DNA from: Candidatus Hydrogenedens sp.
GTDB taxonomy: Bacteria; Hydrogenedentota; Hydrogenedentia; Hydrogenedentales; Hydrogenedentaceae
NCBI GenBank assembly: GCA_049968235.1
Contig: JBMFRC010000006.1
Coordinates: 96,001 to 160,000 of the forward strand
Direction of reading: 5' to 3'
Length of the DNA: 64,000 bases
Shown here: in pieces, positions 3,001 through 41,197 of the stretch
How the letters are laid out: the number at the start of each line of letters is the position of its first letter
Position numbering within the stretch: the stretch's first letter is position 1
The notes under the pieces: generated by a model
What the model was told of the DNA's origin: nothing
What the model saw: the letters and a program-made list of their open reading frames with translations, nothing else
Database searches by the model: none
Program-made: the position numbers and the translations under genes

Positions 3001-3957
3001 TTTAAATCATCACTTTCAACAAAAACTGATTCAACAGGTATTTATATTGAAGATAATTCAGGAAGTTACAATCCATCCAATTCTTTAGGTGATGTTAATG
3101 ACCCCAATACAGGTTGGAATACATTTAATCTTAATGGAGGAAAAGCGATAGTATGTAAAAGAGCCGAGGAGATTAAGGCTCATAACAATGACTGGGGAAC
3201 AGAGGATAGTGGAGAAATTTTAAATCAAGTTGAAGGAAATTTAGATACCCAATATTATCTGGGGAAAGGTAAAGCCATGATTGCTTCTTCACTTGCATGT
3301 GTTGTGTGGAATGCCAATAACAGAGACCCTATCATCAACGCCACGGTAGCAATAAATCCTTCTGTCTATCCACCATTAACACAAAATACAAAAGGCGTTT
3401 ATACTTTCTCATCCATTCCATCAGGGACCTATACCATAACAATATCTGCCCCTAATTTTTTAACACGACAGATTAATACAAATATACCTGAAGGAGATTT
3501 AAAATCTGAATCTGTAGCATTAAAACCTGTTGAAGGTGAAGGAACGGCTGATGGAGAAGGAACTACCGAAGGAATTCAAGAAGGTTCTACGGAAGGAACA
3601 ACTGAAGGTGAAAAAGAAATATTAATTCCTGATGTAAGAGGAATGTCTGTAGAGGAAGCAACTCAAGTATTAAATTCTGCAGGACTTCGTGTTTCAAATA
3701 CTATAAAAGAAGAATATAACCAGGAAGTTTCCAGAGGGAAAGTTACTCGAACGGAACCAGCAATCGGGACAAAAGTAGTCCAAAATACAGAAATAACTCT
3801 GGTAGTTAGTAAGGGGGCAAAAAGAAGATTTATTATTTCCTGTGGTCCTAATTACAATAGAAACTCGTATTGGGGCGATATAATCATTTGTATCTTTGCA
3901 TCCACCTTGCTTTTGTACAATCGTCCAGGAAAAGTATCTATAAATAAGAACAAATAA
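1..3957 (+). CDS. Giant secreted/surface multidomain protein, 5'-partial. It contains right-handed beta-helix repeats, three Ig-like (DUF5011-like) repeats, thrombospondin-type-3-like Ca-binding aspartate repeats, a second beta-helix, a carboxypeptidase-regulatory-like beta-sandwich, an acidic E/G/T linker, a C-terminal PASTA domain and a short hydrophobic tail.
   Basis: Frame 1 is open from nt 1 with no stop before the first ATG at 247, so the gene starts upstream of the window. Beta-helix NxxGGAI-type repeats are present (GGAINISNS, GGAIYINNS). Three repeats of about 80 aa have the form G.Y.DPG..A.D...tG.YTI.Y. Aspartate repeats read DNDGDG / DSDDDSMPD / DADLDGLSN. Residues near the C-terminus (IPDVRGMSVEEATQVLNSAGLRV...TLVVSKG) fit the PASTA consensus closely. 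Confidence 0.7.
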   Translation, partial: TYPFLILVNPTVTQKLIGTHYIFGNGTDIITDIKTPSTDSSTFFIVGYTNSYFENFNWNNTEFTSNPFDTSLNNGANENFDAMVWRLQWNSIENTITPTWGTFLGGTLNDTALSIGTVDSNHICFSGITNSPDFPLQGCQTIAPAYLPSHYLSAFNISGKVIYVNPDSSVDPTDGSSWEKGYHTISEAISSANNYDEIWIKSGYYNERLTINGFSNLILRGGFSGLETNIDEINPWENPTKISPIQVKGTGNLGTPTLNITSCMNIVLNGLVFESGTNILGDGGAINISNSTVRILCSQFYKNNSNGNGGAIYINNSYANIANCVFVQNSCSGNGSGISANESTVKIIHCTFANNFNSVSEDVSTVDIQGSTSMLMILNSIIWANEGNTHVQINYPEIIPPVNLLFSHSIIQNFSLLSTPPSPNTVLDTNPLFIENPSETTPGDLNLNLESPAVNLADPISLTIEYGAVNEDIRRKPRIFMGESCKPDAGAFEIFPAPTPVITLLGDNPLYLTINNPYIEPGYVSKDGCDVDITFLVDVTSNVNTEQTGEYTVEYSVISPYDQGQIIKAIRRVIVITASSQIILNGPSDVVIECGNFFIDPGAVAFDLLGNNISNEIIVTDNVDYSTPGTYTIEYSVTETESHPALHAVRNITVQDTTPPILILIGPPQITIPCGSTWSDPGYIAFDQCSLNNVQVNVTGSVNTSATGTYTITYTAYDENEHTSTLTRKVVVDCNIPQLQQCQNQCSNDTSPVDNDGDGLSFCIETCLGTSDQDIDSDDDSMPDYFEATYNLNPLFNDAKEDADLDGLSNLEEFLTKTNPIDSNSPWEAHYVSNSGDDDNPGTLQSPRATITTTLGNINTNQNKQSSIVLFPGNYYEDIVLSENIVLIGITAYGENNRPVIYGKITGANGAKIYNVDIKSSTTSPAIIPVKAEVEKPILLNCGNTSMHIRNVRFLGTGSEIGISVEGGNCYNTIIERCLFQDLSIGILIGDSIPVIRRCIFKSSLSTKTDSTGIYIEDNSGSYNPSNSLGDVNDPNTGWNTFNLNGGKAIVCKRAEEIKAHNNDWGTEDSGEILNQVEGNLDTQYYLGKGKAMIASSLACVVWNANNRDPIINATVAINPSVYPPLTQNTKGVYTFSSIPSGTYTITISAPNFLTRQINTNIPEGDLKSESVALKPVEGEGTADGEGTTEGIQEGSTEGTTEGEKEILIPDVRGMSVEEATQVLNSAGLRVSNTIKEEYNQEVSRGKVTRTEPAIGTKVVQNTEITLVVSKGAKRRFIISCGPNYNRNSYWGDIIICIFASTLLLYNRPGKVSINKNK

Positions 3958-9734: not shown

Positions 9735-10415
9735 CTATTTTTGACCATAATAACCGTCTTTCCCCCATTTTCGTTCATAATGTTTCCTTAAATACACCTC
9801 TTCTATTGTTTTTATATTTCCATCACTTATCATAATTGTATGGTATGCCATTTCCGCTAACTGTTCAAGAACAAAGGCTGTTTCAACTGCTTTCTCTACA
9901 TTTTCTCCCCAAACGAAAGGTCCATGTCCTGGAATAAGAACCGCCTTACATCTTTCTTCATTATTTTCCAAAATACATTGAACGACCTTTTCACCTATTG
10001 AATTTTCATAGTCTTCTGTATCAGGTATTTTTGTTAATGGAACATCTCCGAAAAAATAATCTGCATGAGTAGTTCCCAAACATGGGATTGGTTTTCTTGC
10101 CTGAGCCCAACATGTTGCAAAATGGGAATGTGTATGAACAACACCACCTGCACCGGACACATTTTTATATATAGATAGATGAACGGGTAAATCTACAGAT
10201 GGTTTTAAATCTCCCTCAACAATTTTTCCGTCTATATCTACAACGACCATATCCCTTACTTTTAGTTTGTGATAAGGAACTCCACTGGGCTTAATCACCA
10301 CCAGGTTACTTTCTCTATCTATTCCACTGGCATTTCCCCATGTTAAAATTACCAGTTTTTCTTGAACTAGTTGCAAATTGGCTTCCAAAACTTCCTTTTT
10401 CAATCGCTCTAACAT
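9735..10415 (-). CDS. araD: L-ribulose-5-phosphate 4-epimerase (class II aldolase/adducin family, AraD-like)
   Basis: The protein aligns nearly end to end with AraD: LEANLQL...LTWGNASG..IKPSGV...HTHS.HAT.WAQA...GTTHADYF...LRKHY..K.G..AYYGQ. Confidence 0.8.
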   Translation of the reverse strand: MLERLKKEVLEANLQLVQEKLVILTWGNASGIDRESNLVVIKPSGVPYHKLKVRDMVVVDIDGKIVEGDLKPSVDLPVHLSIYKNVSGAGGVVHTHSHFATCWAQARKPIPCLGTTHADYFFGDVPLTKIPDTEDYENSIGEKVVQCILENNEERCKAVLIPGHGPFVWGENVEKAVETAFVLEQLAEMAYHTIMISDGNIKTIEEVYLRKHYERKWGKDGYYGQK

Positions 10416-10427
10416 TGTACTTACCTT

Positions 10428-11426
10428 TTATTCATCTGCATTTGATTGAATCATATTACTGACTTTTTCTGGATTTTCCATAACAGATATTAATATTTCT
10501 TCTATCTTTTGGGCACATTTAAGATTCATAATTTCTGTGCGTATTTTTCCGATATATGGGTAACCATGTAAATAACCATTATAAAACTTTCTAAATATGG
10601 GAACTCCTCTTTGCTCGCCATAGTATTCAATGTGCTTGCGGAAATGTATAAGACACCAATGTATTCGTTCTGTAATGTCAGGTTCAGGAGTATATTCACC
10701 TTTTTCCAGATATAATTTACAGCGTTTAAATAAAAAGGGATTTCCAATAACAGCCCTTCCTATCATAACTCCATCCGCGCCCAATGCAAAGCATTTTTCA
10801 ACATCCTGCGGTGTTTTTATATCCCCGTTAGCAACAAAAGGTATTCTCGTTTTTTCTTTTATTTTAGGTACCCAGGACCAATCTACATCTCCTTTTAATC
10901 CCTGTTGTCTTGTTCTTAAATGTACTGTGATAAAATCAATACCTATGTTATAAGCAATTTCTAAAACATCAAAAATAGTAATATTATTATCGTCCCAACC
11001 TAATCGTGTTTTTAATGTAACAGGTAGTTCTATATTTGATTTTACTTCGTATAAAACGCGTTCCAATTTTTTTAAGTCCCTCAACAAACCTGCACCATCT
11101 CCCCTATTTGCAATTTTTTTAACCCAACAACCTGCGTTAATGTCAATAAAATCCGGAGCATAACTTTCCGCTGTTTTCCCTGCATTTACCATTGATGTTT
11201 CAGAACTACCATATAATTGAATACCGATAGGTCTCTCCTGTTCATTAAAACTCATTTTCTTTAAGGACCTATCTACATTACGGATTACCGCCTCTGCACT
11301 GATAAATTCAGTAATAACGACATCCGCACCCCATTCTTTGCATATGTTGCGAAACGGGAAATCAGTTATATCATCCATAGGGGCGAGAAACAAAGGCTTT
11401 TCTATTTCATATTTTCCAATTTTCAT
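10428..11426 (-). CDS. dusB: tRNA-dihydrouridine synthase (Dus family)
   Basis: The protein contains LAPMDDITDFPFR, a TIM-barrel FMN site and C-terminal helical Dus features. Confidence 0.85.
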   Translation of the reverse strand: MKIGKYEIEKPLFLAPMDDITDFPFRNICKEWGADVVITEFISAEAVIRNVDRSLKKMSFNEQERPIGIQLYGSSETSMVNAGKTAESYAPDFIDINAGCWVKKIANRGDGAGLLRDLKKLERVLYEVKSNIELPVTLKTRLGWDDNNITIFDVLEIAYNIGIDFITVHLRTRQQGLKGDVDWSWVPKIKEKTRIPFVANGDIKTPQDVEKCFALGADGVMIGRAVIGNPFLFKRCKLYLEKGEYTPEPDITERIHWCLIHFRKHIEYYGEQRGVPIFRKFYNGYLHGYPYIGKIRTEIMNLKCAQKIEEILISVMENPEKVSNMIQSNADE

Positions 11427-11437
11427 TGTATTGAATT

Positions 11438-13153
11438 TTATTTATTCATTTTAAAAAGTTTCATGGCACAAAATTTAGGTCCACACATCGTGCAATAATT
11501 TTGATTTATTTTATCTCTCCCGTCTTCCTTTATACATGGATTACTTTCTATAAACATTTGCAATGATTTTTCGGGGTCTAATGCAAGAGCAAATTGGTCC
11601 TCCCATGAGAATTTAACCCTTGCTAATGCCATAAGGCAATCCCGAAGAAAAGCGGAAGGCAAACCTTTTGCAATATCTGAAGCATGTGCCGAAATTCGAT
11701 AGGTAATTACGCCTTCTCGTACATCCTCCCTATTGGGTAAACCTATATGCTCTTTGGGTGTAACATAACATAACATAGCGGTTCCTGCAGAGCCGATAAG
11801 CGTTGCCCCGATAGCAGAGCTAATATGGTCATAACCTGTTGCAATATCTGTTACAACGGGACCCAATGTATAAAATGGAGCGGAATTGCACAAATCCTTT
11901 TGAATTTCAATATTATCCATAATTTTATTCATAGGGATATGCCCCGGCCCCTCATGCATCACCTGAACATCGAATTTCTCTGCCCTTCTGGCAAGTTCAC
12001 TTTGAATTTTTAATTCTGCAAATTGGGCTTCATCATTTGCATCATAAATACATCCCGGCCTCAAGCCGTCCCCTATCGAAACCGCGACATCATAGGCAGA
12101 TAATATTTCACAAATTTCATCCCAGTGGGTATATGTAAAATTCTGTTGTTTATGCATTTTCATCCATTGTGAAATAATTGCACCTCCACGACTGACAATA
12201 CCTGCTAATCGTTTTTCCACCAGTGGCAGGTGTTCTTCCAGTAATCCGGCATGAATTGTGAAATAATCTACTCCTTGTTCCGCTTGTTTAATTAAAACAT
12301 CGCGATATAATTCCCATGAAATTTCTTCTGGCTTTCCTTCTACCTTCTCTAATACTTCATAAATCGGTACTGTTCCAACAGGAACGGGTGAATTCCGAAT
12401 TATTGCTTCTCGAATGGTTTCTATTTCTTCCCCTGTGCTTAAATCCATAACTGTATCAGCACCACACATTACTGCCCAAATCATCTTTTCTACTTCTTCT
12501 TTAATCCCGCTACGAATAGATGAATTTCCTATATTTGCATTAATTTTTGTTCGTAGTCCTTGCCCTATTCCCATCGGTTCTAATTCCGGATGATTAATAT
12601 TTGCAGGTATAATAATTCTTCCTTCTGCTACTTGTTTACAAATCCATTCCGGGGAAATCATCGATTCTTTTATGATTTTCTCTGCTTTCTCTTTCCACAA
12701 CCAATCTATCCACATTTTATTTTGTGTTATTTCAATACTTTCTCGATGTGCTACATATTCCATCTCCGGAGTAATAATACCTTTCTTTGCATAGTACCGT
12801 TGTGTTACCCTTTTCCCACATTTTGCTTTTCGTATTATTTTATTTCCTTTTTGAAAACTTTGTATTTCTTCCCTTAACTTTATCCATTCATCTCGTATCT
12901 TTGATATTCCAATCTGAAAATCCGATAATTCTGTTATACTTTCATAAGGTCCTGCTGTATCATATATATAATATTCAAAAGCATGTGAAGAATATTTCTC
13001 TTTTAACGCATCCGGGACAATGTTTTCGTTAATTTTTATTTTCCTTGTAGGTATTAAAAAATTAAATTCCTTCCCATTTATATTTATATATTCTTTTTGA
13101 ATTTTAGATTTCAAAACATCACTTTTTATAAAGTTATTCATTCTTCTACCCAA
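11438..13153 (-). CDS. thiC: Phosphomethylpyrimidine synthase ThiC (long N-terminal form)
   Basis: The C-terminal [12 protein letters not shown] radical-SAM-like motif is present and the ThiC core is conserved. Confidence 0.9.
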
Positions 13154-18244: not shown

Positions 18245-18784
18245 CTAAACTTTTAATGTTTTGATAATGTTATTTATTTCATTCTCTATTAACTTATATA
18301 TCTCTATATCATTCATATTCGAGAATCTTTCTCTACATTCTCCCGTGTGAATTGATAAAAGTGTGTGTGTATTGTGGATAATATAAATTTGCATATTAAT
18401 ATTGGGATTCGTAATAAACATTCCGGCAATGGAATTCCCTAAATCTCCTACTGGCATCCTGTCAATATTTGATAACACAAAAGTCAACGCAACCCTGGCA
18501 CCTCCTAAATCTTCACTTTTACCAATTACAACATCGCCACCGGCTCTTTCTGCTGAACCTTTAGCCAAACTTAATCCCATTCCCACTATTTTTGATTTTT
18601 TTGTTGTATAAAATGGGTCAAACAACTGTTCTTCATCAACGCTAAAACCTTTTCCATTATCTTCAATTATCAGGGTAAGCAAATCAGTTTCCTCATTTAT
18701 ATCCAACAAAATTCGTATCTCATTTGCACCTGCATTAATTGAATTTTCTATCAAATCAAGGATATGTAAAGAGAGTTCAATCAA
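18245..18784 (-). CDS. Stand-alone GHKL/histidine-kinase-like ATPase (HATPase_c) with no HisKA domain
   Basis: N, G1 (DNGKGF) and G2 (GMGLSL) boxes are present. There is no H-box or dimerisation domain, and an 80-aa C-terminal extension follows. It overlaps the upstream PHP gene by 8 nt. Confidence 0.7.
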   Translation of the reverse strand: MIELSLHILDLIENSINAGANEIRILLDINEETDLLTLIIEDNGKGFSVDEEQLFDPFYTTKKSKIVGMGLSLAKGSAERAGGDVVIGKSEDLGGARVALTFVLSNIDRMPVGDLGNSIAGMFITNPNINMQIYIIHNTHTLLSIHTGECRERFSNMNDIEIYKLIENEINNIIKTLKV

Positions 18785-19547
18785 TTTCTATGACCTCCAA
18801 AACAGTATTTGTCCTTATTCCTTTTTTTATACCGTCAAAAGTGAGACTATCCACGCATATTTCTGTTCGAACATGCCCAATTTCATCTATAGAATGTGCA
18901 TCTGAAGAAGTAATTACCGGAAGATTTTGAGGTAGTGAATATATGATACTTTTTAAAAGAAACTCTTTCTTTTCGATAACCCTTTTTACTGATATAGGTG
19001 ATATTTCTAACACATCAAACACATTGTCAGGAATAATACCCAGCTGGCTTGTAATAGAAAAAGAAGGGCGGTCAACATGACTGGCAATAATCATTGCGTT
19101 ATATTTTCTTAATAATGCAATTACATTTTCTAAATTCATACCCGATGATAAATACAGCGATTTTTCTTCTTCTCCTATAACTTCTCCTTTTGAATTAATA
19201 ATTAGCTGAGGTTCTAAAAAGTCTTTCTTGTTTAACTCTTCACTTAAAGTTTCTCTTATAATTTTTCCAACCGACTCTGCATCTTCTAAATCGGGAAATA
19301 TCCCTAAAACATGTACTTCTTCTTCAGTTGTAATCTCTATTCCTGGAAGAAATAATATCTGTGGGAACCAATTCTGTCCATATTCATAAAATGCCCGCAC
19401 ATTCCTCGTGCTATTGTGATCACATATAGCAAATGCATTTATCCCTTTTTTTATTAAGCGTGGATATATATTCTGGGGTAGCATCATTCGGTCTGCACAT
19501 GGGGATAAAACAGAATGAATATGTAAGTCAGAAAATAATATGGACAA
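18777..19547 (-). CDS. PHP-domain metal-dependent phosphoesterase
   Basis: The N-terminal DLHIHSVLSPC...ICDHN histidine motifs are typical of the PHP family. Confidence 0.75.
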   Translation of the reverse strand: MSILFSDLHIHSVLSPCADRMMLPQNIYPRLIKKGINAFAICDHNSTRNVRAFYEYGQNWFPQILFLPGIEITTEEEVHVLGIFPDLEDAESVGKIIRETLSEELNKKDFLEPQLIINSKGEVIGEEEKSLYLSSGMNLENVIALLRKYNAMIIASHVDRPSFSITSQLGIIPDNVFDVLEISPISVKRVIEKKEFLLKSIIYSLPQNLPVITSSDAHSIDEIGHVRTEICVDSLTFDGIKKGIRTNTVLEVIEID

Positions 19548-19551
19548 AACA

Positions 19552-19902
19552 CTACCCTCTTATACCCAACTCATACAATTTTCCAACAATATTAAATGCA
19601 GTATCGGAAGATGAAAATAATAATATTTTTTCTTGTTCTGCTTTCTTCATGACATTATCATCGGGATGGCGGTTTTGTATAAAAATGACTGCAGAAATTT
19701 CTGCATGGACACATACCGCTATTACATTGATATGTGTCTGTAAAGTAATTAGAATAGAGCCTTTTTTCGCATTTGCTAAAACATCACTCAGTAAATCCGA
19801 TACATACCCTTCACTAACTTCTCTATCTAATAAGTCAGCAATTTCAGGAGTAAGTAATTCCAATTGTAATTCCTCATAAATTTCTTTTAATTTCTTACTC
19901 AT
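19552..19902 (-). CDS. DRTGG-domain protein
   Basis: A small (about 116 aa) protein with a DRTGG-like core (ILITLQTHINVIAV...). It is a paralogue of the 21496-21840 product. Confidence 0.6.
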   Translation of the reverse strand: MSKKLKEIYEELQLELLTPEIADLLDREVSEGYVSDLLSDVLANAKKGSILITLQTHINVIAVCVHAEISAVIFIQNRHPDDNVMKKAEQEKILLFSSSDTAFNIVGKLYELGIRG

Positions 19903-19918
19903 ACATTTATCTCCATTT

Positions 19919-21499
19919 TTACATTCTATTCAAATATGGGCAGTTGTTTATATCTTTCTTCATTATTACAATGTCTTCTGCAAAATTCAAGCATGCGGGT
20001 GCTCCACAAACTCCACAATCATAGCCGGGTAATTTTTTATTTATTTTTTCTATCTCACTAAGTTTCTGAATCGCTATTCTTACATCCTCATCAAGTCGCA
20101 CACCTTTCCGTGAATTGATAGTGGATACACGGTATATTGCATCTATTTTTTGATTTTCATATTTATGCTTCTGTTCATTCCAGAATGAATCAAAAATTAT
20201 TTTTGACATGGTGGGTTCTTCACCCCAATATGGAGAGCCAAAACAGCCATTATAGCAAGCATACAATTCCACCATTTTTATAGGGACAGGTAATTGTTTC
20301 TTTTCTATATTTTCTAAAAACGTTTTTACCTGCTCTATTCCAGATATTGTTACTATGCCATCATTGCTATTTTTGTCAATATTTATATTGTGTATTTTAT
20401 CTTTTTGTTTTTTCTTATTTGTTTCTTTATATATATCCATTATCATTTCAAATGATTTCTGGGGAGAAATCATTTGAATAGAAATATCTAAATTTTTATT
20501 GTTATTAACTGCGGATATCTGAGCAGGACAAGAAGGTATAAAAAAGATATTTCGTCTTTCAGCGAAACTACTTATCGCTGTTTCTATAGGTCCCAAATAG
20601 GGAGCAATATTATCAATCAATGAAGGATATTCCGTTTGTATCCAGTATAGGACTGCGGGACAAACGGGTAATATTAAAGGGAAATTAATTTTTTCATTGT
20701 TCTCAATATATTTTTGTGTTTCTTTTTGTAATACTTCCTCCCATAATACTAATGGAAATACTTCCAATCCTTTTCTGTGGAATTTTTCTTCGAACTCATC
20801 CCATGAATAATAAAGTAGAATAGAAGCAATCCATGGTGAGGGGGCGATAAGTATTCCCTGCTTTTCCTTTTCATGATTTTTCTCGCAATCCTCCAAATCA
20901 AATACTTTCGTAGGACATATCTTTATACATTCATTACAATTGATGCAATGGTGAGACAAAATATACAAGTTTTTTTCATACAGTCTTATGGCTTTTGTGG
21001 GACATCTTGATAGACATTGCAAACATTTTTTACATTTCTCTGCCGTTACATGAACATAACTATCAACTTTTGAAAAATCTTTGTCTGACTTTACAAATAT
21101 AAGTATTTTTAACAAAGTGCCTGTGGGCTCGCTATGTATAACAAAGTAGTCTGAATTTTTCCTTATGTTAGGTAAACCCATTCCTGCTCCGAAACCCATT
21201 TCTCTTGCTTCGTCGGGTGCAGTAGAGTACCCTTCCTGAACAGCAAGGTCAATTCGGGGAATACCGGGTCCTGTATCCTTAACTACAATCTCAATTTTTT
21301 CATCATCTATTGTAAAATTAATTTCTCCTCCATAAGAATGGATAATAACATTCATCTCCGACTCATAAACGGCAATCATAATCTTTCGGATTATTTCGGG
21401 GGCTATTGCCAACTTACTTAATATTTCTTTAATTTTTGAAGAAACCTGTCCGCCACCTAAATAATCTCCTTTTTTTACTGGATATGAACCTGTAATCAT
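19919..21499 (-). CDS. Fusion protein: GHKL ATPase (anti-sigma/serine-kinase-like) + 2x[4Fe-4S] ferredoxin + [FeFe]-hydrogenase large-subunit-like domain with degenerate H-cluster motifs + RnfB-type Fe-S domain
   Basis: The N-terminus has HATPase motifs (DTGPGI, GFGAGMGLP). Two ferredoxin motifs follow: CKKCLQCLSRCP and CINCNECIKICP. The next domain carries PVCPAVLYW, IPSCPAQ and ELYACYNGCFGSP, which correspond loosely to the hydrogenase motifs TSCCP, MPCxxK and ExMACxxGC. The C-terminal DCGVCGAPACLNFAE...NCP matches the RnfB N-terminal Fe-S (Cx2Cx4C...C) domain. Confidence 0.65.
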   Translation of the reverse strand: MITGSYPVKKGDYLGGGQVSSKIKEILSKLAIAPEIIRKIMIAVYESEMNVIIHSYGGEINFTIDDEKIEIVVKDTGPGIPRIDLAVQEGYSTAPDEAREMGFGAGMGLPNIRKNSDYFVIHSEPTGTLLKILIFVKSDKDFSKVDSYVHVTAEKCKKCLQCLSRCPTKAIRLYEKNLYILSHHCINCNECIKICPTKVFDLEDCEKNHEKEKQGILIAPSPWIASILLYYSWDEFEEKFHRKGLEVFPLVLWEEVLQKETQKYIENNEKINFPLILPVCPAVLYWIQTEYPSLIDNIAPYLGPIETAISSFAERRNIFFIPSCPAQISAVNNNKNLDISIQMISPQKSFEMIMDIYKETNKKKQKDKIHNINIDKNSNDGIVTISGIEQVKTFLENIEKKQLPVPIKMVELYACYNGCFGSPYWGEEPTMSKIIFDSFWNEQKHKYENQKIDAIYRVSTINSRKGVRLDEDVRIAIQKLSEIEKINKKLPGYDCGVCGAPACLNFAEDIVIMKKDINNCPYLNRM

Positions 21500-34504: not shown

Positions 34505-34674
34505 AAAAATACCCTCTCAATCATTTAATTATTCGTTTGAAAAAGAATTTATCTTTTTACCAAATTAAATATAGTATAAGAGAACGTGAGTAAAAAGTTC
34601 AACTTATCAAGCAATATACTTACCATTAAATAATTAGAAATAATACAATGATTTTTAAAAAATTAAAAAATACT

Positions 34675-34704
34675 TGACAAACTACTATATATTGTGCTAC
34701 TATA
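34675..34704 (+). promoter_or_regulatory. Candidate sigma70-like promoter (TTGACA - 18 nt - TACTAT) in the pntA / LPS-kinase divergent intergenic region
   Basis: Hexamers read by eye. The direction and the gene served are uncertain. Confidence 0.2.
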
Positions 34705-34868
34705 TATTTGGTGTTTGGGAATTGCGTATGCCCGATTCCTCAGACCAGCCCAAAACTTCAATATAAAAATTGAATATGAATTTTCCTCTTGCGCCTACAG
34801 AGCAATTTCTCAGACACCCCCCGCAAATATAGCGGCAGGAAGCCCAAACCTGCCGCTCCTCCCTTTCA

Positions 34869-35756
34869 ATGTTTCTCTTTTTTATTTCCATGTATGTGTT
34901 TTATAATTTATTATTCTTTTATTACTTACAAATGAGATGTAATAACAATATGCCTATACAATTACCTGCTGTTTATAAAATATTTTCAAATAACATGGGG
35001 CATATAGTTTTAAGAGAAGATTTATCCCATGACCTAATTGAAATACTATCTGCATTATTATCTAATTCTACACCGGACAAATTAATCCTTTTATCGGGTG
35101 GCAGAAATAATGTATTCTTATACAATTTCAATACTCACTTTTCCATTTTGATAAAGCAATATTCGCATGGTGGCATCTATAGAAATATTTTTCCCCGATA
35201 TTATTTTTTTTCTAATCGTTTTTTGAATGAATTTTATATGTATATAAATATATTAAAAAATAATTTATCTGTGCCTGAATATCTTGGGGGATTTTGGTCA
35301 AAAAAATTTGGACTTTACAAGTGTGGAATAATCACGAAGTACATCCCGTATACATATACATTAGACGAATATTTAAATAATAATTTCTATTCAATTGAAG
35401 AAAAATATGACATATTAATCAAATGTGGAAAAATTATTAAGAATATGCACGATATAGGAATTTTTCATAATGATTTACAAATTCGAAATTTATTAATCAG
35501 TTCTACAGAAAAATCTGTTTATATAATTGATTTTGACAATGCAAAAAAGGTATCCACATTAAATAGTTATTATTGTTCACAAAATTTATTACGATTAAAA
35601 CGCTCTTTTCTAAAAAGGGGTATCAGTACAGAATTTTTTAATATCCTGTTAAATGGTTATGGTATTTCTCATCTCTCTTTCCTTGCAGAAGTCTTTTCAT
35701 TTCCTCATATACAATGGATAAATTATAAAAATCGTTATATTAATAAAAACAAATAG
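34869..35756 (+). CDS. Kdo/WaaP-family lipopolysaccharide kinase-like protein (protein-kinase-like fold), copy 1
   Basis: Catalytic-loop and DFG-like segments are present: IFHNDLQIRNLLI ... YIIDFDNAK. An alternative start at the ATG at 34950 would remove the hydrophobic N-terminal 27 aa. Confidence 0.65.
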   Translation: MFLFFISMYVFYNLLFFYYLQMRCNNNMPIQLPAVYKIFSNNMGHIVLREDLSHDLIEILSALLSNSTPDKLILLSGGRNNVFLYNFNTHFSILIKQYSHGGIYRNIFPRYYFFSNRFLNEFYMYINILKNNLSVPEYLGGFWSKKFGLYKCGIITKYIPYTYTLDEYLNNNFYSIEEKYDILIKCGKIIKNMHDIGIFHNDLQIRNLLISSTEKSVYIIDFDNAKKVSTLNSYYCSQNLLRLKRSFLKRGISTEFFNILLNGYGISHLSFLAEVFSFPHIQWINYKNRYINKNK

Positions 35757-35762
35757 ATAATA

Positions 35763-36542
35763 ATGAAATACAGTAAGAAATCAAAATATCATATTTGGTC
35801 AAATGAAGATAACTTTGACCCAGATGTTTTTTTGACTGAAATATTCAATACAGGAAAAGTATTAAAAGAAACAGATAAAACTTCTTCTCTCCAATGGTAT
35901 TCTTACTTTGTAAAAAAGACAAACTATTCTCTTTCTGAAGGGATATTCAGGCATCTCTTTTTATCAAGCCGTTGTAGAAGTGCATGGAATATTAGCAACT
36001 ACTTAATAGATAATCATATACCTACACCAAAACCTGTTGCATATCTTGAATTGTTAAAATATTCATTACCTTATCAGCATTTTTTCATTTCAGAATATCT
36101 ACGCGGTAGTTATAATATTGAGGTATTCATTAGAGATGGTATTTATTTGAGTAAAGGTATAACATTAGAATACTTCTTTGAGATAATGAAAAGATTTCTT
36201 ATTCTTTTGTGGGATAAAGGAGTATATCATAAAGACCTATCTGGTAAAAATCTATTGACAATGGAAGGAGAACCTATATATTTAATTGATTTAGATGCTA
36301 CCTATTTGATAAATCATTTTGCGATAAAATATAAAATAAGGAATTTAACACAGATTTATGATTCCTTCTGTGATTTCGTTAATGAAAAAATACTGAAAGA
36401 TTTCATTTTCACAATGCTTGATGATTTATCATTAAAGGAAATAAAGATAATCTATACTAAGATACAACAACTCCAGAAGCAACGAAGAAACCAACATTTA
36501 AGGAATATTCAGCGGTATAATAAAAAGGATAATTTATCATAA
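35763..36542 (+). CDS. Kdo/WaaP-family lipopolysaccharide kinase-like protein, copy 2 (divergent paralogue)
   Basis: The protein contains VYHKDLSGKNLLT ... YLIDLDATY. It starts 7 nt after copy 1. Confidence 0.65.
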   Translation: MKYSKKSKYHIWSNEDNFDPDVFLTEIFNTGKVLKETDKTSSLQWYSYFVKKTNYSLSEGIFRHLFLSSRCRSAWNISNYLIDNHIPTPKPVAYLELLKYSLPYQHFFISEYLRGSYNIEVFIRDGIYLSKGITLEYFFEIMKRFLILLWDKGVYHKDLSGKNLLTMEGEPIYLIDLDATYLINHFAIKYKIRNLTQIYDSFCDFVNEKILKDFIFTMLDDLSLKEIKIIYTKIQQLQKQRRNQHLRNIQRYNKKDNLS

Positions 36543-37810
36543 TGGAAAAAGAGAATGAAATTACAAAATTAGATTGGCTGGACGACAATATCCGGAATTA
36601 CATTCAATCCATATATCGAGTTCAGCACTTTTATTCAAATTTAACGGATATTGAACAACTTATTGTAATTATTACAGAAGAATGTAAAAAAGCATGTAAT
36701 GCGGAAGCAGGTTCTTTACTACTCTATGATGAGAAAAAGGAAGAACTCTTTTTTCAGGTAACTTTAGGTCCGGTGGGTTCTGAAATAGTAAAGAAAGAAA
36801 TTCGCATACCTGTAAACTGTGGTATTGCCGGGGAAGTTGCAAGAACAAAAAGACCTTTGATTGTTAATGATGTCAAAAACGATTCTCGTTTTTTCCCGGG
36901 GGTAGACATAGCAACTCAGTTTTCGACACGGAATATTCTTGCAGTCCCATTGATTGACCGCCAACGATTAATTGGCGTTATTGAGATGGTTAATAAAATA
37001 GGTAATGCACCCTTTTCGCATGAAGACCTCCGTTTCCTGGAAATATTAGCATCATGGGCTGCTTCTGCTGTTGTAAGTTCACAATTAATACAAGAGAAAT
37101 TACAGGCGGAACGATTTGCTACAATAGGTTATACATTAACCGCATTAGCACATCATTTGAAGAATATACTTACGGGAATGTTAACCAGCACAGAACTTAT
37201 CGAAAAATCATTGAACCAAAAAAATTATGAGGTTGTTCATAAAGCCTGGCCTGTCCTTAAAAGGACTTCCCTTTATGTTTTTGAGTTTGTCAAAGATTTA
37301 TTATTATTTTCAAAATCTCGAACCCCACAAAAAGTATATTGTCATTTAGAAGATATAACCAATAAGGTATCCGAATTTTTTTTCGACCTTTTTTCAAACC
37401 GTCAAATCGAACTCATCATTGATATTTCTCGGGTGAAGGACAAAGTATTCCTTGACCCCAACGGCATTATTCATTGTTTAACCAACTTACTTCTAAATTC
37501 TGGTGAAGCAGTTCCAGAAAAGAAAGGAGTTGTAAAAATTGAAGGGGAATTGTCTCAAAACAAAGATTTGATTATTACAGTATCTGATAATGGAAAAGGA
37601 ATTCCATCGGAAGATATTGAACATATTTTTGAACCGTTTTTTACAACAAAGGGTTATCGGGGAACTGGTTTAGGTTTGTCTGTTACCCAAAAGATAGTAG
37701 AGGAACATGGCGGTAGAATTAAGGTTGTTAGCGAAAAGGACAAAGGAACAAAATTTATTATTACACTTCCCCAGACAAATACAGAAATAAATAGAAAGGA
37801 GACAACTTAA
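36542..37810 (+). CDS. GAF-domain sensor histidine kinase (orphan; no response regulator nearby)
   Basis: A GAF domain in the N-terminal half is followed by an H-box (LTALAHHLKN) and HATPase G-boxes (DNGKGIP, GTGLGLSV). Its start overlaps the stop of the upstream kinase gene. Confidence 0.8.
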   Translation: MEKENEITKLDWLDDNIRNYIQSIYRVQHFYSNLTDIEQLIVIITEECKKACNAEAGSLLLYDEKKEELFFQVTLGPVGSEIVKKEIRIPVNCGIAGEVARTKRPLIVNDVKNDSRFFPGVDIATQFSTRNILAVPLIDRQRLIGVIEMVNKIGNAPFSHEDLRFLEILASWAASAVVSSQLIQEKLQAERFATIGYTLTALAHHLKNILTGMLTSTELIEKSLNQKNYEVVHKAWPVLKRTSLYVFEFVKDLLLFSKSRTPQKVYCHLEDITNKVSEFFFDLFSNRQIELIIDISRVKDKVFLDPNGIIHCLTNLLLNSGEAVPEKKGVVKIEGELSQNKDLIITVSDNGKGIPSEDIEHIFEPFFTTKGYRGTGLGLSVTQKIVEEHGGRIKVVSEKDKGTKFIITLPQTNTEINRKETT

Positions 37811-37813
37811 GCA

Positions 37814-38080
37814 ATGAAACAATTTAAAAACCTTGAATCAGTAGGATGGATTTTCTGGGCGGTTTGTAGTGTTTTATTACTTGTTCCGAATTACTTTCTC
37901 TCTGGGTTACTGCTGTATGATAACTCCCTTGGTGCTTATATAGGTTTCACTATAGGAATGTCTGCTGTTATAGGTGCCGTTATTGCATGGGTTGTCAACG
38001 AAATTCTTTATAGGATAAATCTTGCAAAATACAAAGAAACAAAGAAGAGAGAAAGAAAAAAGAAAAAGAAAGCCAGTTAA
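37814..38080 (+). CDS. Small membrane protein with Lys/Arg-rich C-terminal tail
   Basis: An 88-aa protein with two TM helices followed by KETKKRERKKKKKAS. It starts 4 nt after the HK gene. Confidence 0.45.
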   Translation: MKQFKNLESVGWIFWAVCSVLLLVPNYFLSGLLLYDNSLGAYIGFTIGMSAVIGAVIAWVVNEILYRINLAKYKETKKRERKKKKKAS

Positions 38081-38103
38081 ATGGTTTATTTTGGAGAACA
38101 GCC

Positions 38104-39582
38104 TTGAAACTACTTGATTTGCTTGATTATGTGGAAAAAAATCCGAAAGATTATGAAAAACGTTGGAAATTAGCAAAGAAACTGTATCAAAACAAAGATT
38201 ATACATTAGCATTAGAACATTTGAAGGTGCTTATAAATGAATGGGAGTGCCATATCAATGTTTATCGGTTCTTATCTGCCACATTATATCGTCTCGGAAA
38301 ATATGAAGAATCTATAAATGAGTTAAAAAAAGCCATTAAAAAATGGGATAAAGAACCCGGACTATATGAACAATTAGGAAGAGTATTGATTTCATCCGGG
38401 AAAATTGAAGAGGCAAAAAAAGTTTATGAAAAACTTGCTGAAATTTGTCCTGAACATAAATGGGCACAAACGACGGTATCACGAATAGAAAGTTTTTTGA
38501 GTAAAAAACATGTTCGAAAGACACCCTTTCCGTTTACTTTTGGCTCTGATTTCGATTTACTCCCTGAATCTATCTGTAAGCGTTGTGGAGCAGAAAATCA
38601 GGGGTATATTGACCGTTGCTGGAAATGTGGAGAAATACTAACATCTGAAACAAATCCGTCCGATGTAACTACTACTGAAATCTGTTTAAACCCCGTTACT
38701 ATATTAACACCAGAAATCATAACGCTTCTTCTTGGATTGGTTACTATTTCATTTATATCTATAAATATTTTTATGTCTCTCAAGTTTTTTTTAGGAGATT
38801 ACAAATCCGTTCATGTTAGTTTGACCTTCTGGGATATTTATCGGTATGACCTTTTCCCTGCTCGCTTCCTTACCAGTATTATTCTACTTTTCATTTCACC
38901 TATTTTTATCAAGTTAGGGCTAAACATTACAGGTTTACGAGATAAAATTCCTTATAATCTAATCGTTTTAACAGGACTGGTTATTGCTTCTTTTATCAAT
39001 TTAGCATCATGGTTATCCAAACCTTTATTTTTATGGGGCTTTATACTGGTTCCAATCTTTTCTTTCCTTGTTATTTTCGGAACATTTGCCATATCTCTTA
39101 TAAAAACACTAAATCTTTGTTTATTTCAGATGTTTATGTTATTCCTATCAACTGTTATTATTTTTAGTGCTGTTGAATCTCATATCCTGAATACCTTCAT
39201 AAATCCTTTTACTCAAATTCCTACTGTTGCCCGCTTCTTCAAATACCAGTATATACAACCACCCCACACGATAGAATTAAATAGTCCGGATGGTTCCCCT
39301 ATAATCAAAAATATATCCTTTGATAAAACAGGTTCTTATTGGCTTGACATGAGAGCCAATAAAATGAAGATAAACCTATTTTTAGACAACCCCGACACAT
39401 TCATCCTTGAAGTTAATAAAGGTGAAACAAAACCTATTATCTACCAAAAAAGTAAAGATAATAAATGGTCTGCGATCTGCTTTGTAAATACAGATGAAAT
39501 CTTTACGATTAAAATCTCTACGGAAAATAAAACTCCATTTGTTGCCCGAATACAAAGTCTTTTTATTTTAAGTCCCCAGTAG
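38104..39582 (+). CDS. TPR-repeat / zinc-ribbon / polytopic membrane protein (hypothetical)
   Basis: The N-terminus has TPR-like helices. A Cx2C...Cx2C ribbon (CKRCGAENQGYIDRCWKCGE) follows, then about six TM helices and a C-terminal soluble domain. Confidence 0.5.
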   Translation: MKLLDLLDYVEKNPKDYEKRWKLAKKLYQNKDYTLALEHLKVLINEWECHINVYRFLSATLYRLGKYEESINELKKAIKKWDKEPGLYEQLGRVLISSGKIEEAKKVYEKLAEICPEHKWAQTTVSRIESFLSKKHVRKTPFPFTFGSDFDLLPESICKRCGAENQGYIDRCWKCGEILTSETNPSDVTTTEICLNPVTILTPEIITLLLGLVTISFISINIFMSLKFFLGDYKSVHVSLTFWDIYRYDLFPARFLTSIILLFISPIFIKLGLNITGLRDKIPYNLIVLTGLVIASFINLASWLSKPLFLWGFILVPIFSFLVIFGTFAISLIKTLNLCLFQMFMLFLSTVIIFSAVESHILNTFINPFTQIPTVARFFKYQYIQPPHTIELNSPDGSPIIKNISFDKTGSYWLDMRANKMKINLFLDNPDTFILEVNKGETKPIIYQKSKDNKWSAICFVNTDEIFTIKISTENKTPFVARIQSLFILSPQ

Positions 39583-41197
39583 AGAGCAAAAATTCTCGTG
39601 CAATTTTATTGTCTGGGAAGCGATACAGACATTCGCGATACCATTTTATACTCTCTTCTTTTTCATCTAATTCTTCTGCACATCTACCTAATAATAAATA
39701 AATATTTCCATCATCTATTTTTGTAAGGGCTTCTTTCAAAACTTTGTAAGCGTTATAGTAATCTTTTTTTCTTATCAATTCTTGAGCATAACCTTCATAC
39801 ATAGCATAAGTTGCAAATTTATAACTTACAAGATTTCGATATTTTTCTTCACAATCCTGCCCTAATATTAGTAGTTTTTCTGCTTGCCGAAGTTTATAGT
39901 CGGGAACCCATAATTTATAAGTAAGAAATACAATAGATATAAGTCCGAAAACAGAAAGAATAAATCTTGTTTTCGTGTTAGCATTCAATAACTTATTAAT
40001 TTGTATATTTTCCCTTTTGAACATTCTTTGTTTCTCATTACACAATGACAACAACGCTACGACCAGATGAGAGGAACTAATTAAAATCGGGTTTAAAAGA
40101 GAAACTAATATGAATACCAACCATACATAAGGATTTCTATAAATAAAAATAGGAGAAAGATAAAATAAACTTACAAATATAAGTCCGGATACTCCTGTTT
40201 CCGATAACAACTCAAGTATGTCATTATGGGCATGTAAAGTCAATAGTTCATTCCGAATATGCATACTTCCATAACTTGAATGTAAGGCATCAGCCAGATA
40301 TTTCGGACTCCAATAATAAAAATTTCCCCAACCCACACCTAAAAACGGATTAGATAAAAACATTCGAATAGAACCATCGTATATCCACAAACGCACACGA
40401 AATCCCACATCCATATCAGAAAAACTATACCTTAAACGCTCATATATAAATGGTAATGCAAGTAACATTCCCAATAACATAGATACCAAAATGTATGTGT
40501 TTTTTTTATTAAACCCTCTATTTTCTTTATATATATTTGTGAAATAAAAAGTCATTATTATTAAGATAGAAAACCATGAACTCCGTGAATTGCTTAAAAT
40601 TAGTCCGCATCCCAAAACAAAAAAACTAAGAAACTTAAACATGTCTCTCATTGGAAACTTATCCCAGCGAACCAGAATACCTACCATCACCATAGCGATA
40701 TATGTTCCAGCAAGATTTTGATTTCCGAAAACAGAATACAACTGTTTGTAAAATGAATAATTTGGAAATAAAACAGGTAACAAATCGAGATATTGCACAA
40801 TTAATGAAATAGCGACAAATACCCCAGATAATAAAATCCCATACTCTATATATGTTTCATATTTTCCATCCCTATTTAAATCGGATATTAAAACAAGTGT
40901 AATAAAAACTAAAAACAACTCCATAGAACGGAGTAATGTTTGTTCTGGAACTTTCGCATAAAAAAAAGTTAAAAATAAATATAAATTTAGGATAAAAAAG
41001 AAAATGAGAGGTATAGGTGTAAATAATCTTTCTCTATTTTTCAGGAAGTAAGGTAACAATAATATTAAAAAGATACTTAACATAATCTCTTTTGGATAAA
41101 GAAATGATGTAAATTCAAAAGAAAATACAATCGGAGGAATAAGTAAAGTGAAAAGTAGAATAATTCCAACTACTTTTTCCTTCCCCACTAAATTCAT
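39563..41197 (-). CDS. O-antigen ligase/polymerase-like (Wzy_C family) membrane protein with C-terminal TPR
   Basis: Ten or more TM helices with a large periplasmic loop, and a C-terminal TPR-like region. It overlaps the convergent upstream gene by 20 nt. Confidence 0.55.
   Translation of the reverse strand: MNLVGKEKVVGIILLFTLLIPPIVFSFEFTSFLYPKEIMLSIFLILLLPYFLKNRERLFTPIPLIFFFILNLYLFLTFFYAKVPEQTLLRSMELFLVFITLVLISDLNRDGKYETYIEYGILLSGVFVAISLIVQYLDLLPVLFPNYSFYKQLYSVFGNQNLAGTYIAMVMVGILVRWDKFPMRDMFKFLSFFVLGCGLILSNSRSSWFSILIIMTFYFTNIYKENRGFNKKNTYILVSMLLGMLLALPFIYERLRYSFSDMDVGFRVRLWIYDGSIRMFLSNPFLGVGWGNFYYWSPKYLADALHSSYGSMHIRNELLTLHAHNDILELLSETGVSGLIFVSLFYLSPIFIYRNPYVWLVFILVSLLNPILISSSHLVVALLSLCNEKQRMFKRENIQINKLLNANTKTRFILSVFGLISIVFLTYKLWVPDYKLRQAEKLLILGQDCEEKYRNLVSYKFATYAMYEGYAQELIRKKDYYNAYKVLKEALTKIDDGNIYLLLGRCAEELDEKEESIKWYRECLYRFPDNKIAREFLLSTGDLK

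What the first reader, a model, noticed from the sequence alone, without database searches (positions are those of the whole stretch)
34869..39582. Candidate envelope-signalling locus: two tandem Kdo/WaaP-family kinase-like genes, an orphan GAF histidine kinase, a Lys-rich mini membrane protein and a TPR + zinc-ribbon polytopic membrane protein, converging on an O-antigen-ligase-like gene
Five plus-strand genes are separated by 0-23 nt, with the kinase-2 stop overlapping the HK start, so they form a likely operon. The two LPS-kinase-like proteins are mutually divergent paralogues. They have a protein-kinase-like fold with HxDLxxxN and DxD-like motifs, and they could phosphorylate LPS core sugars or, alternatively, proteins. 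The histidine kinase has a cytoplasmic GAF sensor and no cognate response regulator anywhere in the window. The last gene combines TPR repeats, a Cx2C-Cx2C zinc ribbon and about six TM helices. The convergent neighbour is a Wzy_C/O-antigen-ligase-like protein with its own C-terminal TPR. Taken together this looks like an uncharacterised system that couples a small-molecule (GAF) signal to modification of the cell envelope.
Basis: partly seen in the sequence, partly recalled or inferred. Interest (0 to 1): 0.6.

Follow-up and report, generated by a model that had tools for sequence, protein, structure and literature searches.

The report
Composite kinase and envelope-sensor gene cluster
The genes are real, but the locus joins two independent units: an ordinary-looking Kdo-kinase pair, and an uncharacterised phylum-wide module made of a soluble histidine kinase, two membrane proteins and an O-antigen-ligase-like enzyme.

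Summary
All six genes exist as described in a Candidatus Hydrogenedens MAG, tightly packed, with no response regulator in the window. Comparison with 73 species-level Hydrogenedentota loci splits the locus in two.

(1) A core is conserved across the phylum despite changing flanks: GAF histidine kinase (62/64 loci), an 88-aa two-TM Lys-rich protein (62/64), and a TPR + zinc-ribbon + five-TM + β-sandwich protein. A WaaL/Wzy_C-like gene converges on it (36/47; 3' ends overlap in 33/50). A glutaminyl-cyclase-like M28 lipoprotein usually lies upstream (43/57).

(2) The kinase pair K1-K2 sits here only in the Hydrogenedens clade (7/57), where it replaces the M28 gene. In two other MAGs the orthologous pair lies on another contig with a methyltransferase and no kinase module. 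K1 orthologues score 117-141 bits on the KdkA model (cutoff 142).

I infer a membrane sensor/adaptor complex, LapA/LapB-like in architecture, that docks the soluble kinase.

A conserved 165-nt structured RNA with no Rfam match precedes K1.

The parts
34674..34703 (+). Promoter-like element (TTGACA, 18 nt spacer, TG-extended TACTAT) with a direct repeat CTACTATAT
   Evidence: Consensus scan scores 10 of 12. The element is nearly invariant in 8 loci whose flanking proteins are 50-76% identical.
34704..34868 (+). Conserved structured RNA, either a 5' leader of K1 or an independent small RNA. It has an 11-bp closing stem, two small internal hairpins and a 9-bp GC-rich 3' hairpin, followed by a pyrimidine-rich tail.
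   Evidence: Alignment and alifold. The covariance model scores 136-184 bits in every K1/K2-clade locus, always between pntAA and K1. Folding z-score is -3.3 on the + strand and -1.8 on the - strand. Three pairs show compensatory changes, and the G-U pairs fit only the + strand. There is no Rfam match.
34950..35756 (+). K1: soluble Kdo/WaaP-family kinase, KdkA-like, with all catalytic residues present (beta-3 Lys, alpha-C Glu, HxDLxxxN, DFD)
   Evidence: PF06293 62 bits. KdkA model NF002475 gives 97 bits against a cutoff of 142, and orthologues give 117-141 bits. Motif conservation. No TM segment.
35763..36542 (+). K2: divergent paralogue of K1 that keeps HxDLSGKN and DLD but lacks the alpha-C Glu. 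It could be a non-canonical kinase or a pseudokinase partner.
   Evidence: PF06293 32 bits. KdkA model 41 bits. Ortholog-specific HMMs separate K1 from K2. Motifs.
36542..37810 (+). Soluble GAF histidine kinase. The phospho-acceptor H204 and the N, G1, F and G2 boxes are conserved. No adjacent response regulator.
   Evidence: Pfam. Conservation in 66 orthologues. Present next to the membrane-protein gene in 62 of 64 loci. No TM segment.
37814..38080 (+). 88-aa two-TM hairpin protein with a conserved GW and N motif and a polybasic cytoplasmic tail
   Evidence: Alignment of 70 orthologues. Present in 62 of 64 loci. Hydrophobic segments.
38104..39582 (+). TPR (8 helices, residues 3-135) + Cx2C-x10-Cx2C zinc ribbon (157-178) + five TM helices (about 203-362) + C-terminal beta-sandwich (389-491)
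39563..41197 (-). Convergent WaaL/Wzy_C-superfamily membrane enzyme with an extra TM helix and a C-terminal TPR
   Evidence: PF04932 65 bits. Aligns to WaaL 7tpg around HAHND. R205, R269, W271 and H324 are conserved in 49 orthologues. Convergent next to the TPR-TM gene in 36 of 47 loci, with 3' ends overlapping in 33 of 50.

Best explanation
The locus is a lineage-specific fusion of two older gene units. Unit A is specific to Hydrogenedentota as far as sampled. It comprises a soluble GAF histidine kinase, a small two-TM protein with a polybasic tail, and a polytopic protein with a cytoplasmic TPR plus rubredoxin-like zinc ribbon and, I infer, a periplasmic beta-sandwich. It is packed tail-to-tail against a WaaL/Wzy_C-type glycan ligase or polymerase. 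In most lineages it is preceded by a periplasmic glutaminyl-cyclase-like M28 lipoprotein. Inferred mechanism: the two membrane proteins form an inner-membrane sensor/adaptor complex, architecturally like LapA/LapB. The beta-sandwich reads an envelope or glycan state connected with the ligase, and the TPR/zinc-ribbon platform docks and controls the TM-less kinase. The kinase also integrates a cytoplasmic ligand through GAF and phosphorylates a response regulator encoded elsewhere. Unit B is K1-K2, a KdkA-like Kdo kinase with a divergent partner that may be catalytically impaired. Elsewhere in the phylum it forms its own operon with a SAM methyltransferase. In the Hydrogenedens clade, unit B and a new structured leader RNA replaced the M28 gene at the head of unit A, so the kinases are probably co-transcribed with the sensor module there. 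Shown: gene content, domain identities, conservation statistics, the independence of the two units, and the RNA's conservation. Inferred: physical complex, topology, signal, output and co-transcription.
For: Core linkage holds across different flanks: L009 and L011 and 73 species-level loci. Counts are HK 62/64, mini 62/64, Wzy_C 36/47, M28 43/57 and K1K2 7/57. The 3' ends overlap in 33/50 loci. The HK catalytic motifs are conserved and it has no TM segment. The TPR and zinc-ribbon residues are the most conserved part of the membrane protein. AF2 and charge bias give a five-TM, N-in, C-out arrangement with a binding-type beta-sandwich. hhalign aligns the TPR plus both CxxC motifs collinearly with the LapB TPR-rubredoxin region (probability 47%, E 2e-4), and LapB's architecture is documented in PMC11046580. 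The independence of K1-K2 rests, and its KdkA affinity. M28 identity rests. The RNA rests.
Against: No interaction, transcript or phosphotransfer data exist. Homology to LapB is weak: the NCBIfam LapB model gave no hit and the mini protein shows no similarity to LapA. The membrane anchor is C-terminal and polytopic, unlike LapB. The Wzy_C gene is absent next to the core in 11 of 47 loci and lies on the opposite strand. Two genomes keep the mini, TPR-TM and Wzy_C genes without the HK (L028, L034), so the membrane proteins may have an HK-independent role. No response regulator is linked in any locus. All genomes are MAGs.
Confidence: 0.45

Rival explanations
1. One reading: all five plus-strand genes and the Wzy_C gene form one system, in which the Kdo-family kinases are effectors or partners of the GAF kinase and phosphorylate LPS core or module proteins in response to its signal.
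For: In every locus of the clade, comprising 16 fetched loci and 9 metagenome loci, K1-K2-HK are separated by -4 to 23 nt, and the K2 stop overlaps the HK start here. They share a single conserved upstream promoter and RNA.
Against: The adjacency is restricted to one clade (7/57). The orthologous K1-K2 pair is unlinked and forms its own operon with a methyltransferase in MAGs that also carry the core. K1 orthologues are near-threshold KdkA. The same position is held by an unrelated periplasmic M28 enzyme in 43/57 loci.
Confidence: 0.15
2. LapA/LapB-type adaptor: the TPR/zinc-ribbon protein, together with the mini protein, recruits a cytoplasmic envelope-biosynthesis enzyme (for example LpxC) for inhibition or proteolysis. 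The HK would be a regulator or client of this checkpoint and not the main output.
For: The gene pair has the same architecture and order as lapA-lapB: a small two-TM protein followed by a TPR plus two-CxxC protein. Pfam gives a faint LapA_dom hit on the mini protein (E 0.095). L028 and L034 keep the pair without the HK. The Raetz pathway is present in more than 94% of Hydrogenedentota genomes (PMC11406978).
Against: hhalign probability is only 47%. There is no NCBIfam LapB hit and no LapA similarity. The protein has four rather than nine TPRs, and a five-TM anchor plus an extracytoplasmic domain instead of one N-terminal helix. No FtsH or LpxC linkage was seen in any locus.
Confidence: 0.2
3. 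The adjacency is neutral synteny: the HK is a generic orphan kinase and the membrane proteins and the ligase are functionally unrelated neighbours.
For: Within the Hydrogenedens clade the whole 20-kb neighbourhood is collinear, including pntAB and purM/purL. No functional data exist.
Against: Outside that clade the flanks are unrelated, yet HK, mini and TPR-TM stay adjacent and co-oriented in 62/64 loci at 25-35% protein identity. The median HK-to-mini gap is about 2 nt, and the ligase 3' end overlaps in 33/50 loci.
Confidence: 0.08

Closest known systems
LapA/LapB (YciS/YciM) LPS-assembly pair of Escherichia coli
   Same: A small two-TM inner-membrane protein is encoded immediately upstream of a membrane-anchored protein whose cytoplasmic part is TPR repeats followed by a rubredoxin-type two-CxxC metal site. 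The domain order is collinear in hhalign (PMC11046580).
   Different: There are four TPRs rather than nine. The anchor is a C-terminal five-TM bundle plus a beta-sandwich, not one N-terminal helix. There is no significant sequence match to LapA or to the NCBIfam LapB model. The pair is linked to a histidine kinase and a WaaL-like gene, not to pgpB/pyrF.
KdkA (3-deoxy-D-manno-octulosonic acid kinase, NCBIfam NF002475)
   Same: K1 has the Kdo-family fold, matches the model over nearly its full length and keeps all catalytic residues. Orthologues score 117-141 bits against a cutoff of 142.
   Different: The window's K1 scores only 97 bits. It always travels with a divergent paralogue, K2, which characterised KdkA genes do not have to my knowledge. 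The substrate is untested.
WaaL O-antigen ligase / Wzy_C superfamily (Cupriavidus WaaL, PDB 7tpg)
   Same: PF04932 domain, the HAHND histidine motif and conserved arginines.
   Different: It has an extra TM helix and a C-terminal TPR domain. Whether it acts as ligase, polymerase or O-oligosaccharyltransferase cannot be decided from sequence.
Histidine kinases controlled by accessory membrane proteins (for example LiaF-LiaS, YycHI-WalK, BceAB-BceS; from my own knowledge)
   Same: In the proposed logic, sensing is delegated to separate membrane proteins encoded in the same operon as the kinase.
   Different: Here the kinase has no TM segment at all, the accessory proteins belong to different families, and no response regulator is co-encoded.
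PEP-CTERM/exosortase regulators PrsK and PrsT with an O-antigen-ligase-like partner
   Same: It combines a GAF-containing histidine kinase, a TPR protein and a Wzy_C-like gene, and these are the best NCBIfam hits.
   Different: Scores are far below the cutoffs (105 against 300, and 41 against 312). No exosortase, PrsR or PEP-CTERM genes were seen in any locus.

Membership tests
Pfam PF06293 Kdo/WaaP lipopolysaccharide kinase family | Score at or above the gathering threshold of 21.3 bits | tested here: met
   K1 62.3 bits, K2 32.1 bits
KdkA equivalog (NCBIfam NF002475) | Whole-protein score at or above 142 bits | tested here: not met
   K1 97.1 bits and K2 41 bits. K1 orthologues 141.3, 130.4 and 117.2 bits, which is borderline for the family but below the cutoff.
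KdkA | ATP-dependent phosphorylation of Kdo on Kdo-lipid IVA | not testable with these tools
   Needs an enzyme assay or LPS mass spectrometry
WaaP/RfaP heptose kinase (NF011703) | Score at or above 170 bits | tested here: not met
   K1 19.1 bits, K2 no hit
Eukaryotic-like protein kinase (PF00069) | Score at or above 31.7 bits | tested here: not met
   K1 29.0 bits, K2 15.0 bits
Protein-kinase-like catalytic core | Beta-3 Lys, alpha-C Glu, HxD...N catalytic loop and DxD/DFG metal-binding Asp | tested here: met
   K1 has all of them conserved. K2 lacks the alpha-C Glu but keeps HxDLSGKN and DLD, so the feature is met for K1 and only partly for K2.
Two-component sensor histidine kinase (HisKA type) | DHp with a phospho-acceptor His, and a HATPase_c domain with N, G1, F and G2 boxes | tested here: met
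   HATPase_c 97.6 bits. HisKA 25.8 bits, just under the 26.9 cutoff. H204 and all boxes are at least 90% conserved in 66 orthologues.
Two-component system | Cognate response regulator | tested here: not met
   No REC domain in the 64-kb window and none adjacent to the core in any locus. A distant partner cannot be excluded.
LapB (YciM) | TPR repeats followed by a rubredoxin-type two-CxxC domain on the cytoplasmic side of the inner membrane | tested here: inconclusive
   The architecture is present. hhalign gives probability 47%, E 1.9e-4. No NCBIfam LapB hit.
LapB (YciM) | A single N-terminal TM helix that contacts FtsH, and LpxC as client | tested here: not met
   The anchor is a C-terminal five-TM bundle. 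Client binding is not testable here.
LapA (YciS) | Sequence membership in PF06305 | tested here: not met
   13.1 bits against a cutoff of 28. BLASTP against E. coli LapA gives E 1.1. Only size, two TM helices, a basic tail and gene position are shared.
Wzy_C / WaaL superfamily (PF04932) | Domain score at or above 31.7 bits, and a conserved catalytic His and Arg residues in the periplasmic loop | tested here: met
   64.9 bits. HAHND aligns to WaaL 7tpg. R205, R269 and H324 are conserved.
PEP-CTERM system PrsK/PrsT | Equivalog scores (300 and 312 bits) and an exosortase neighbour | tested here: not met
   104.8 and 41.2 bits. No exosortase in any locus.
Known anti-phage defence systems (PADLOC) | A significant match of a component to a system-specific model | tested here: not met
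   Only generic kinase-domain hits of 30 bits or less; none for the HK or Wzy_C
Rfam RNA families (for the leader RNA) | A match at the gathering score or at E of 1 or less | tested here: not met
   No match

The most novel reading that the evidence does not exclude
Hydrogenedentota may possess a phylum-specific envelope checkpoint. In it, a LapA/LapB-like membrane pair with its own periplasmic sensor domain would read the state of WaaL-type glycan ligation and control a soluble GAF histidine kinase, a sensing architecture not described for two-component systems. In the Hydrogenedens clade this checkpoint would have captured the Kdo-kinase pair under a previously unknown riboswitch-like leader RNA, putting LPS-core phosphorylation and envelope signalling under one metabolite-responsive transcript.
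Probability: 0.15. Interest if true: 0.7.

Novelty: new variant of a known kind. Interest (0 to 1): 0.45.

Why it matters
The phylum is uncultured, and its envelope biology is known only from pathway inference. The work yields four things. (1) A sharply delimited module of three to five genes, conserved in roughly 60 species-level genomes, that could be tested for how a TM-less histidine kinase is coupled to the membrane. (2) A possible distant analogue of the LapA/LapB checkpoint outside Proteobacteria. (3) A clear example of tight operon packing that is clade-specific and therefore a poor guide to function. (4) A new, highly conserved structured RNA candidate. None of this overturns a paradigm, because the components are familiar domain families.

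Tried and rejected
- **Anti-phage defence system.** PADLOC gave only generic kinase similarity.
- **PEP-CTERM/exosortase regulatory set.** Scores are far below the cutoffs and no exosortase is present.
- **K1/K2 as eukaryotic-like Ser/Thr kinases or Bud32/RIO.** They fall below the Pfam and NCBIfam cutoffs, and PDB sequence hits are weak.
- **The mini protein as SieB or LapA.** Sub-threshold Pfam hits only, and no BLASTP similarity to LapA.
- **The RNA as a known family, or on the minus strand.** No Rfam hit. The minus-strand z-score is weaker and the G-U pairs do not fit that strand.
- **More divergent contexts for the RNA.** The metagenome scan returned only the same pntAA-RNA-K1 arrangement, so it cannot separate a leader from an independent sRNA.
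- **A second M28 gene, the methyltransferase, or further Kdo kinases in the window.** None found.
- **Literature.** No paper links these components.
Full report
**Observation**

The plus-strand genes are separated by 6 nt, a 1-nt overlap (TAATG), 3 nt and 23 nt. The last of them overlaps the convergent gene by 20 nt.

Pfam confirms every domain call:
- K1: PF06293, 62 bits.
- K2: PF06293, 32 bits.
- HK: GAF 72 bits, HATPase_c 98 bits, and HisKA 25.8 bits (cutoff 26.9).
- The 492-aa protein: TPR repeats plus a zinc ribbon.
- The neighbour: Wzy_C, 65 bits, plus a C-terminal TPR.

An exact-protein look-up places the window in a MAG, GCA_049969095.1. Homologues are named Candidatus Hydrogenedens or Hydrogenedentota. 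That MAG's annotation and the 266-281-aa orthologues start K1 at M28 (34950), so 34869-34949 is probably not coding.

A REC-domain search of all window ORFs found nothing. The same queries found REC domains in several other loci.

**Is the gene order informative?**

Homologues at 50-76% identity keep the whole 20-kb neighbourhood: pntAB on one side, and LysR, purM and purL on the other. Synteny at that depth therefore says nothing about function.

The 492-aa membrane protein has relatives at 26-27% identity whose flanks are entirely different. There the GAF kinase, an 88-90-aa protein, the TPR/zinc-ribbon/TM protein and a convergent, overlapping Wzy_C gene are still together. The two Kdo-family kinases are absent, and an M28 peptidase gene overlaps the HK start instead.

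I then scanned one genome per species with the family alignment and obtained 79 loci, nearly all labelled Hydrogenedentota. Scripted HMM searches on 73 non-paralogous loci gave these counts:

| Gene next to the TPR-TM gene | Loci with it / loci with enough sequence |
|---|---|
| HK | 62/64 |
| Mini protein | 62/64 |
| M28 peptidase upstream of HK | 43/57 |
| K1 and K2 | 7/57 |
| Convergent Wzy_C | 36/47 |

The median gap between HK and the mini gene is about 2 nt. The 3' ends of the TPR-TM and Wzy_C genes overlap in 33/50 loci and lie within 50 nt in 43/50. The flanks beyond these genes vary widely.

**The kinase pair is a separate unit**

A K1+K2 HMM finds no Kdo-like kinase within 10 kb of the core in any locus outside the Hydrogenedens clade. 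A profile search with the K1 family found 580 relatives, including some in other Hydrogenedentota MAGs.

Two of those MAGs also carry the core (L027 and L040). In both, a tandem Kdo-Kdo pair lies on another contig. Its genes overlap one another and a 359-aa class-I SAM methyltransferase, and there is no HK. Ortholog-specific HMMs show that the first gene of each pair is K1-type (122-124 bits, against 20-33 on the K2 HMM) and the second is K2-type (119-140 bits, against 13-20 on the K1 HMM). The paralogue pair therefore predates these lineages.

On the curated KdkA model (cutoff 142 bits), K1 orthologues score 141.3, 130.4 and 117.2 bits. The AT-rich window K1 scores 97, and all K2 proteins score about 41. 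K1 keeps the beta-3 Lys, alpha-C Glu, HxDLxxxN and DFD. K2 keeps HxDLSGKN and DLD but has no conserved alpha-C Glu. Neither protein has a TM segment.

In this clade the pair was placed at the head of the sensor operon, where other lineages have the M28 gene. The window has no M28 copy and no methyltransferase homologue.

**The core proteins**

- **HK.** It has no TM segment. Across 66 orthologues, H204 and the N, G1 (DNGxG), F and G2 (GTGLGL) boxes are at least 90% conserved. I read it as an active kinase whose regulator lies elsewhere.
- **Mini protein.** It is a two-TM hairpin with conserved GW and N motifs and a Lys/Arg-rich tail in all 70 orthologues.
- **492-aa protein.** It models well (pLDDT 83; the C-terminal 298 residues alone give pLDDT 88.6 and pTM 0.79). 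The model shows eight TPR helices, a Cx2C-x10-Cx2C ribbon with four invariant cysteines, five long hydrophobic helices and a beta-sandwich.
- **Topology.** Loop charges across 57 orthologues (L1 acidic, L2 basic) fit a cytoplasmic N-terminus and an extracytoplasmic beta-sandwich. This is an inference.
- **Family size.** An exhaustive profile search finds about 130 full-length 50%-identity clusters, all 470-540 aa long, followed only by fragments and generic TPR proteins. The few members that carry names are Hydrogenedentota.
- **Wzy_C protein.** It aligns to the WaaL structure 7tpg around HAHND. It conserves R205, R269, W271 and H324 in 49 orthologues.
- **Upstream M28 protein.** It is a lipoprotein whose closest solved relatives are 7d18 (5e-50) and glutaminyl cyclases.

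**Comparison with known systems**

A small two-TM protein followed by a membrane-anchored TPR protein with two CxxC motifs recalls E. coli LapA/LapB. [quoted passage not shown] It uses the TPRs and the rubredoxin domain to bind LpxC (PMC11046580).

hhalign aligns residues 31-178 of the family collinearly with LapB 227-376, including both CxxC motifs. The probability is only 47% (E 1.9e-4). The NCBIfam LapB model gave no hit, and the mini protein has no similarity to LapA. I therefore use LapA/LapB as a functional analogy, not as a family assignment.

PrsK/PrsT of the PEP-CTERM system are the best NCBIfam hits but fall far below their cutoffs. PADLOC finds no defence system. I found no literature on this module. 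The one genomic survey of the phylum reports the Raetz LPS pathway in more than 94% of genomes (PMC11406978).

**Proposed mechanism**

All steps here are inferred. The mini protein and the TPR/ZnR/TM protein would form an inner-membrane complex. Its periplasmic beta-sandwich would report an envelope or glycan state connected with the WaaL-like enzyme. Its strongly conserved cytoplasmic TPR/zinc-ribbon platform would dock the TM-less kinase. The kinase would also integrate a cytoplasmic ligand through GAF and signal to an unlinked regulator.

Two genomes keep the membrane genes without the HK (L028, L034). An HK-independent, LapB-like adaptor role is therefore a serious rival.

**An additional feature found in passing**

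Upstream of K1, a promoter-like element (TTGACA, 18 nt spacer, TG-extended TACTAT at 34674-34703) and the next 165 nt (34704-34868) are almost invariant in DNA among loci whose proteins are 47-76% identical.

- The consensus fold has an 11-bp closing stem whose G-U pairs fit only the plus strand, two small hairpins and a 9-bp GC-rich 3' hairpin with two compensatory pairs.
- The folding z-score is -3.3 on the plus strand and -1.8 on the minus strand.
- A covariance model finds the RNA in every K1/K2-clade locus and in nine further metagenome contigs, always between pntAA and K1. It finds none in the remote K1-K2-methyltransferase loci or in the distant core loci.
- Rfam has no match.
- The RNA ends 28-82 nt before K1 and is followed by a pyrimidine-rich tail.

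It is either a cis-acting leader/attenuator of the K1-to-TPR-TM transcript or an independent small RNA with C-rich motifs. The data do not decide between these.

**Verdict**

There is a conserved, uncharacterised envelope-associated signalling module, but its members are HK, mini, TPR/ZnR/TM, Wzy_C and usually an M28 enzyme. The Kdo-family kinases are a KdkA-like pair that joined it only in this clade.

I rate it a new variant of known kinds of system, of moderate interest (0.45).

Noticed in passing
window 34674-34868 (+): A promoter-like element plus a 165-nt structured RNA lies between pntAA and K1. It is nearly invariant, has no Rfam match, and is far more conserved than the neighbouring proteins. 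It could be a leader/attenuator or a C-rich small RNA.
   Followed up: partly
window 18245-21499 (-): This is a three-gene group. One protein combines HATPase_c_2, 4Fe-4S and Fe-only-hydrogenase C-terminal domains (19919-21499). Next to it are a PHP-domain protein (18777-19547) and a 179-aa HATPase_c-only protein (18245-18784). It resembles the HATPase_C-bearing group C1 sensory [FeFe]-hydrogenases reported for Hydrogenedentota in PMC11406978.
   Followed up: partly
L082-L086 and L089 (match at about 10001-10650 in L082, L085, L086, L089; 6641-7351 in L083; 3192-3872 in L084): Several genomes carry a short paralogue of about 225 aa with only the TPR and zinc ribbon. It has no HK next to it and is followed by three conserved genes of unknown function (clusters c45-c47; 620-690, 620-650 and about 430 aa).
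   Followed up: no
L075-L079 and L081, around 9986-11505: In one sub-clade the TPR/ZnR/TM gene is split into two ORFs, a TPR part of about 142 aa and a membrane part of about 400 aa. This could be a real gene fission or a shared frameshift.
   Followed up: no
L028 8645-11473; L034 4982-9034: Two genomes keep the mini, TPR-TM and Wzy_C genes (L028 also keeps M28) but have no HK gene at the locus by tblastn.
   Followed up: partly
L022 13456-14388, L029 13253-14464, L075 6101-7000 (-): A membrane-anchored PAS protein with a C-terminal Cys-rich motif (LPICAxCKKIRDDxGYW...HGICPxC) recurs directly beyond the Wzy_C gene in five loci. It might be a further signalling partner.
   Followed up: no
L038, L048, L050, L052, L058-L061, L065, L072 (about +3.3 kb from the anchor): A secreted glycoside hydrolase family 2 protein of about 1064 aa follows the Wzy_C gene in one sub-clade, 12 loci in all.
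   Followed up: no
L015, L019, L023-L025, L034, L035, L039, L047, L057, L061, L063, L064, L070, L071: Contigs carrying this Hydrogenedentota-type module are labelled uncultured Nitrospirales or Nitrospiraceae, Bathyarchaeia archaeon or Rhodothermaeota in their records. These are probably taxonomic mislabels or binning errors.
   Followed up: no
window 247-3957 (+): A 1236-aa surface protein has three Bact_surface_Ig-like domains, CarboxypepD_reg and a C-terminal PASTA domain. This is an unusual combination.
   Followed up: no
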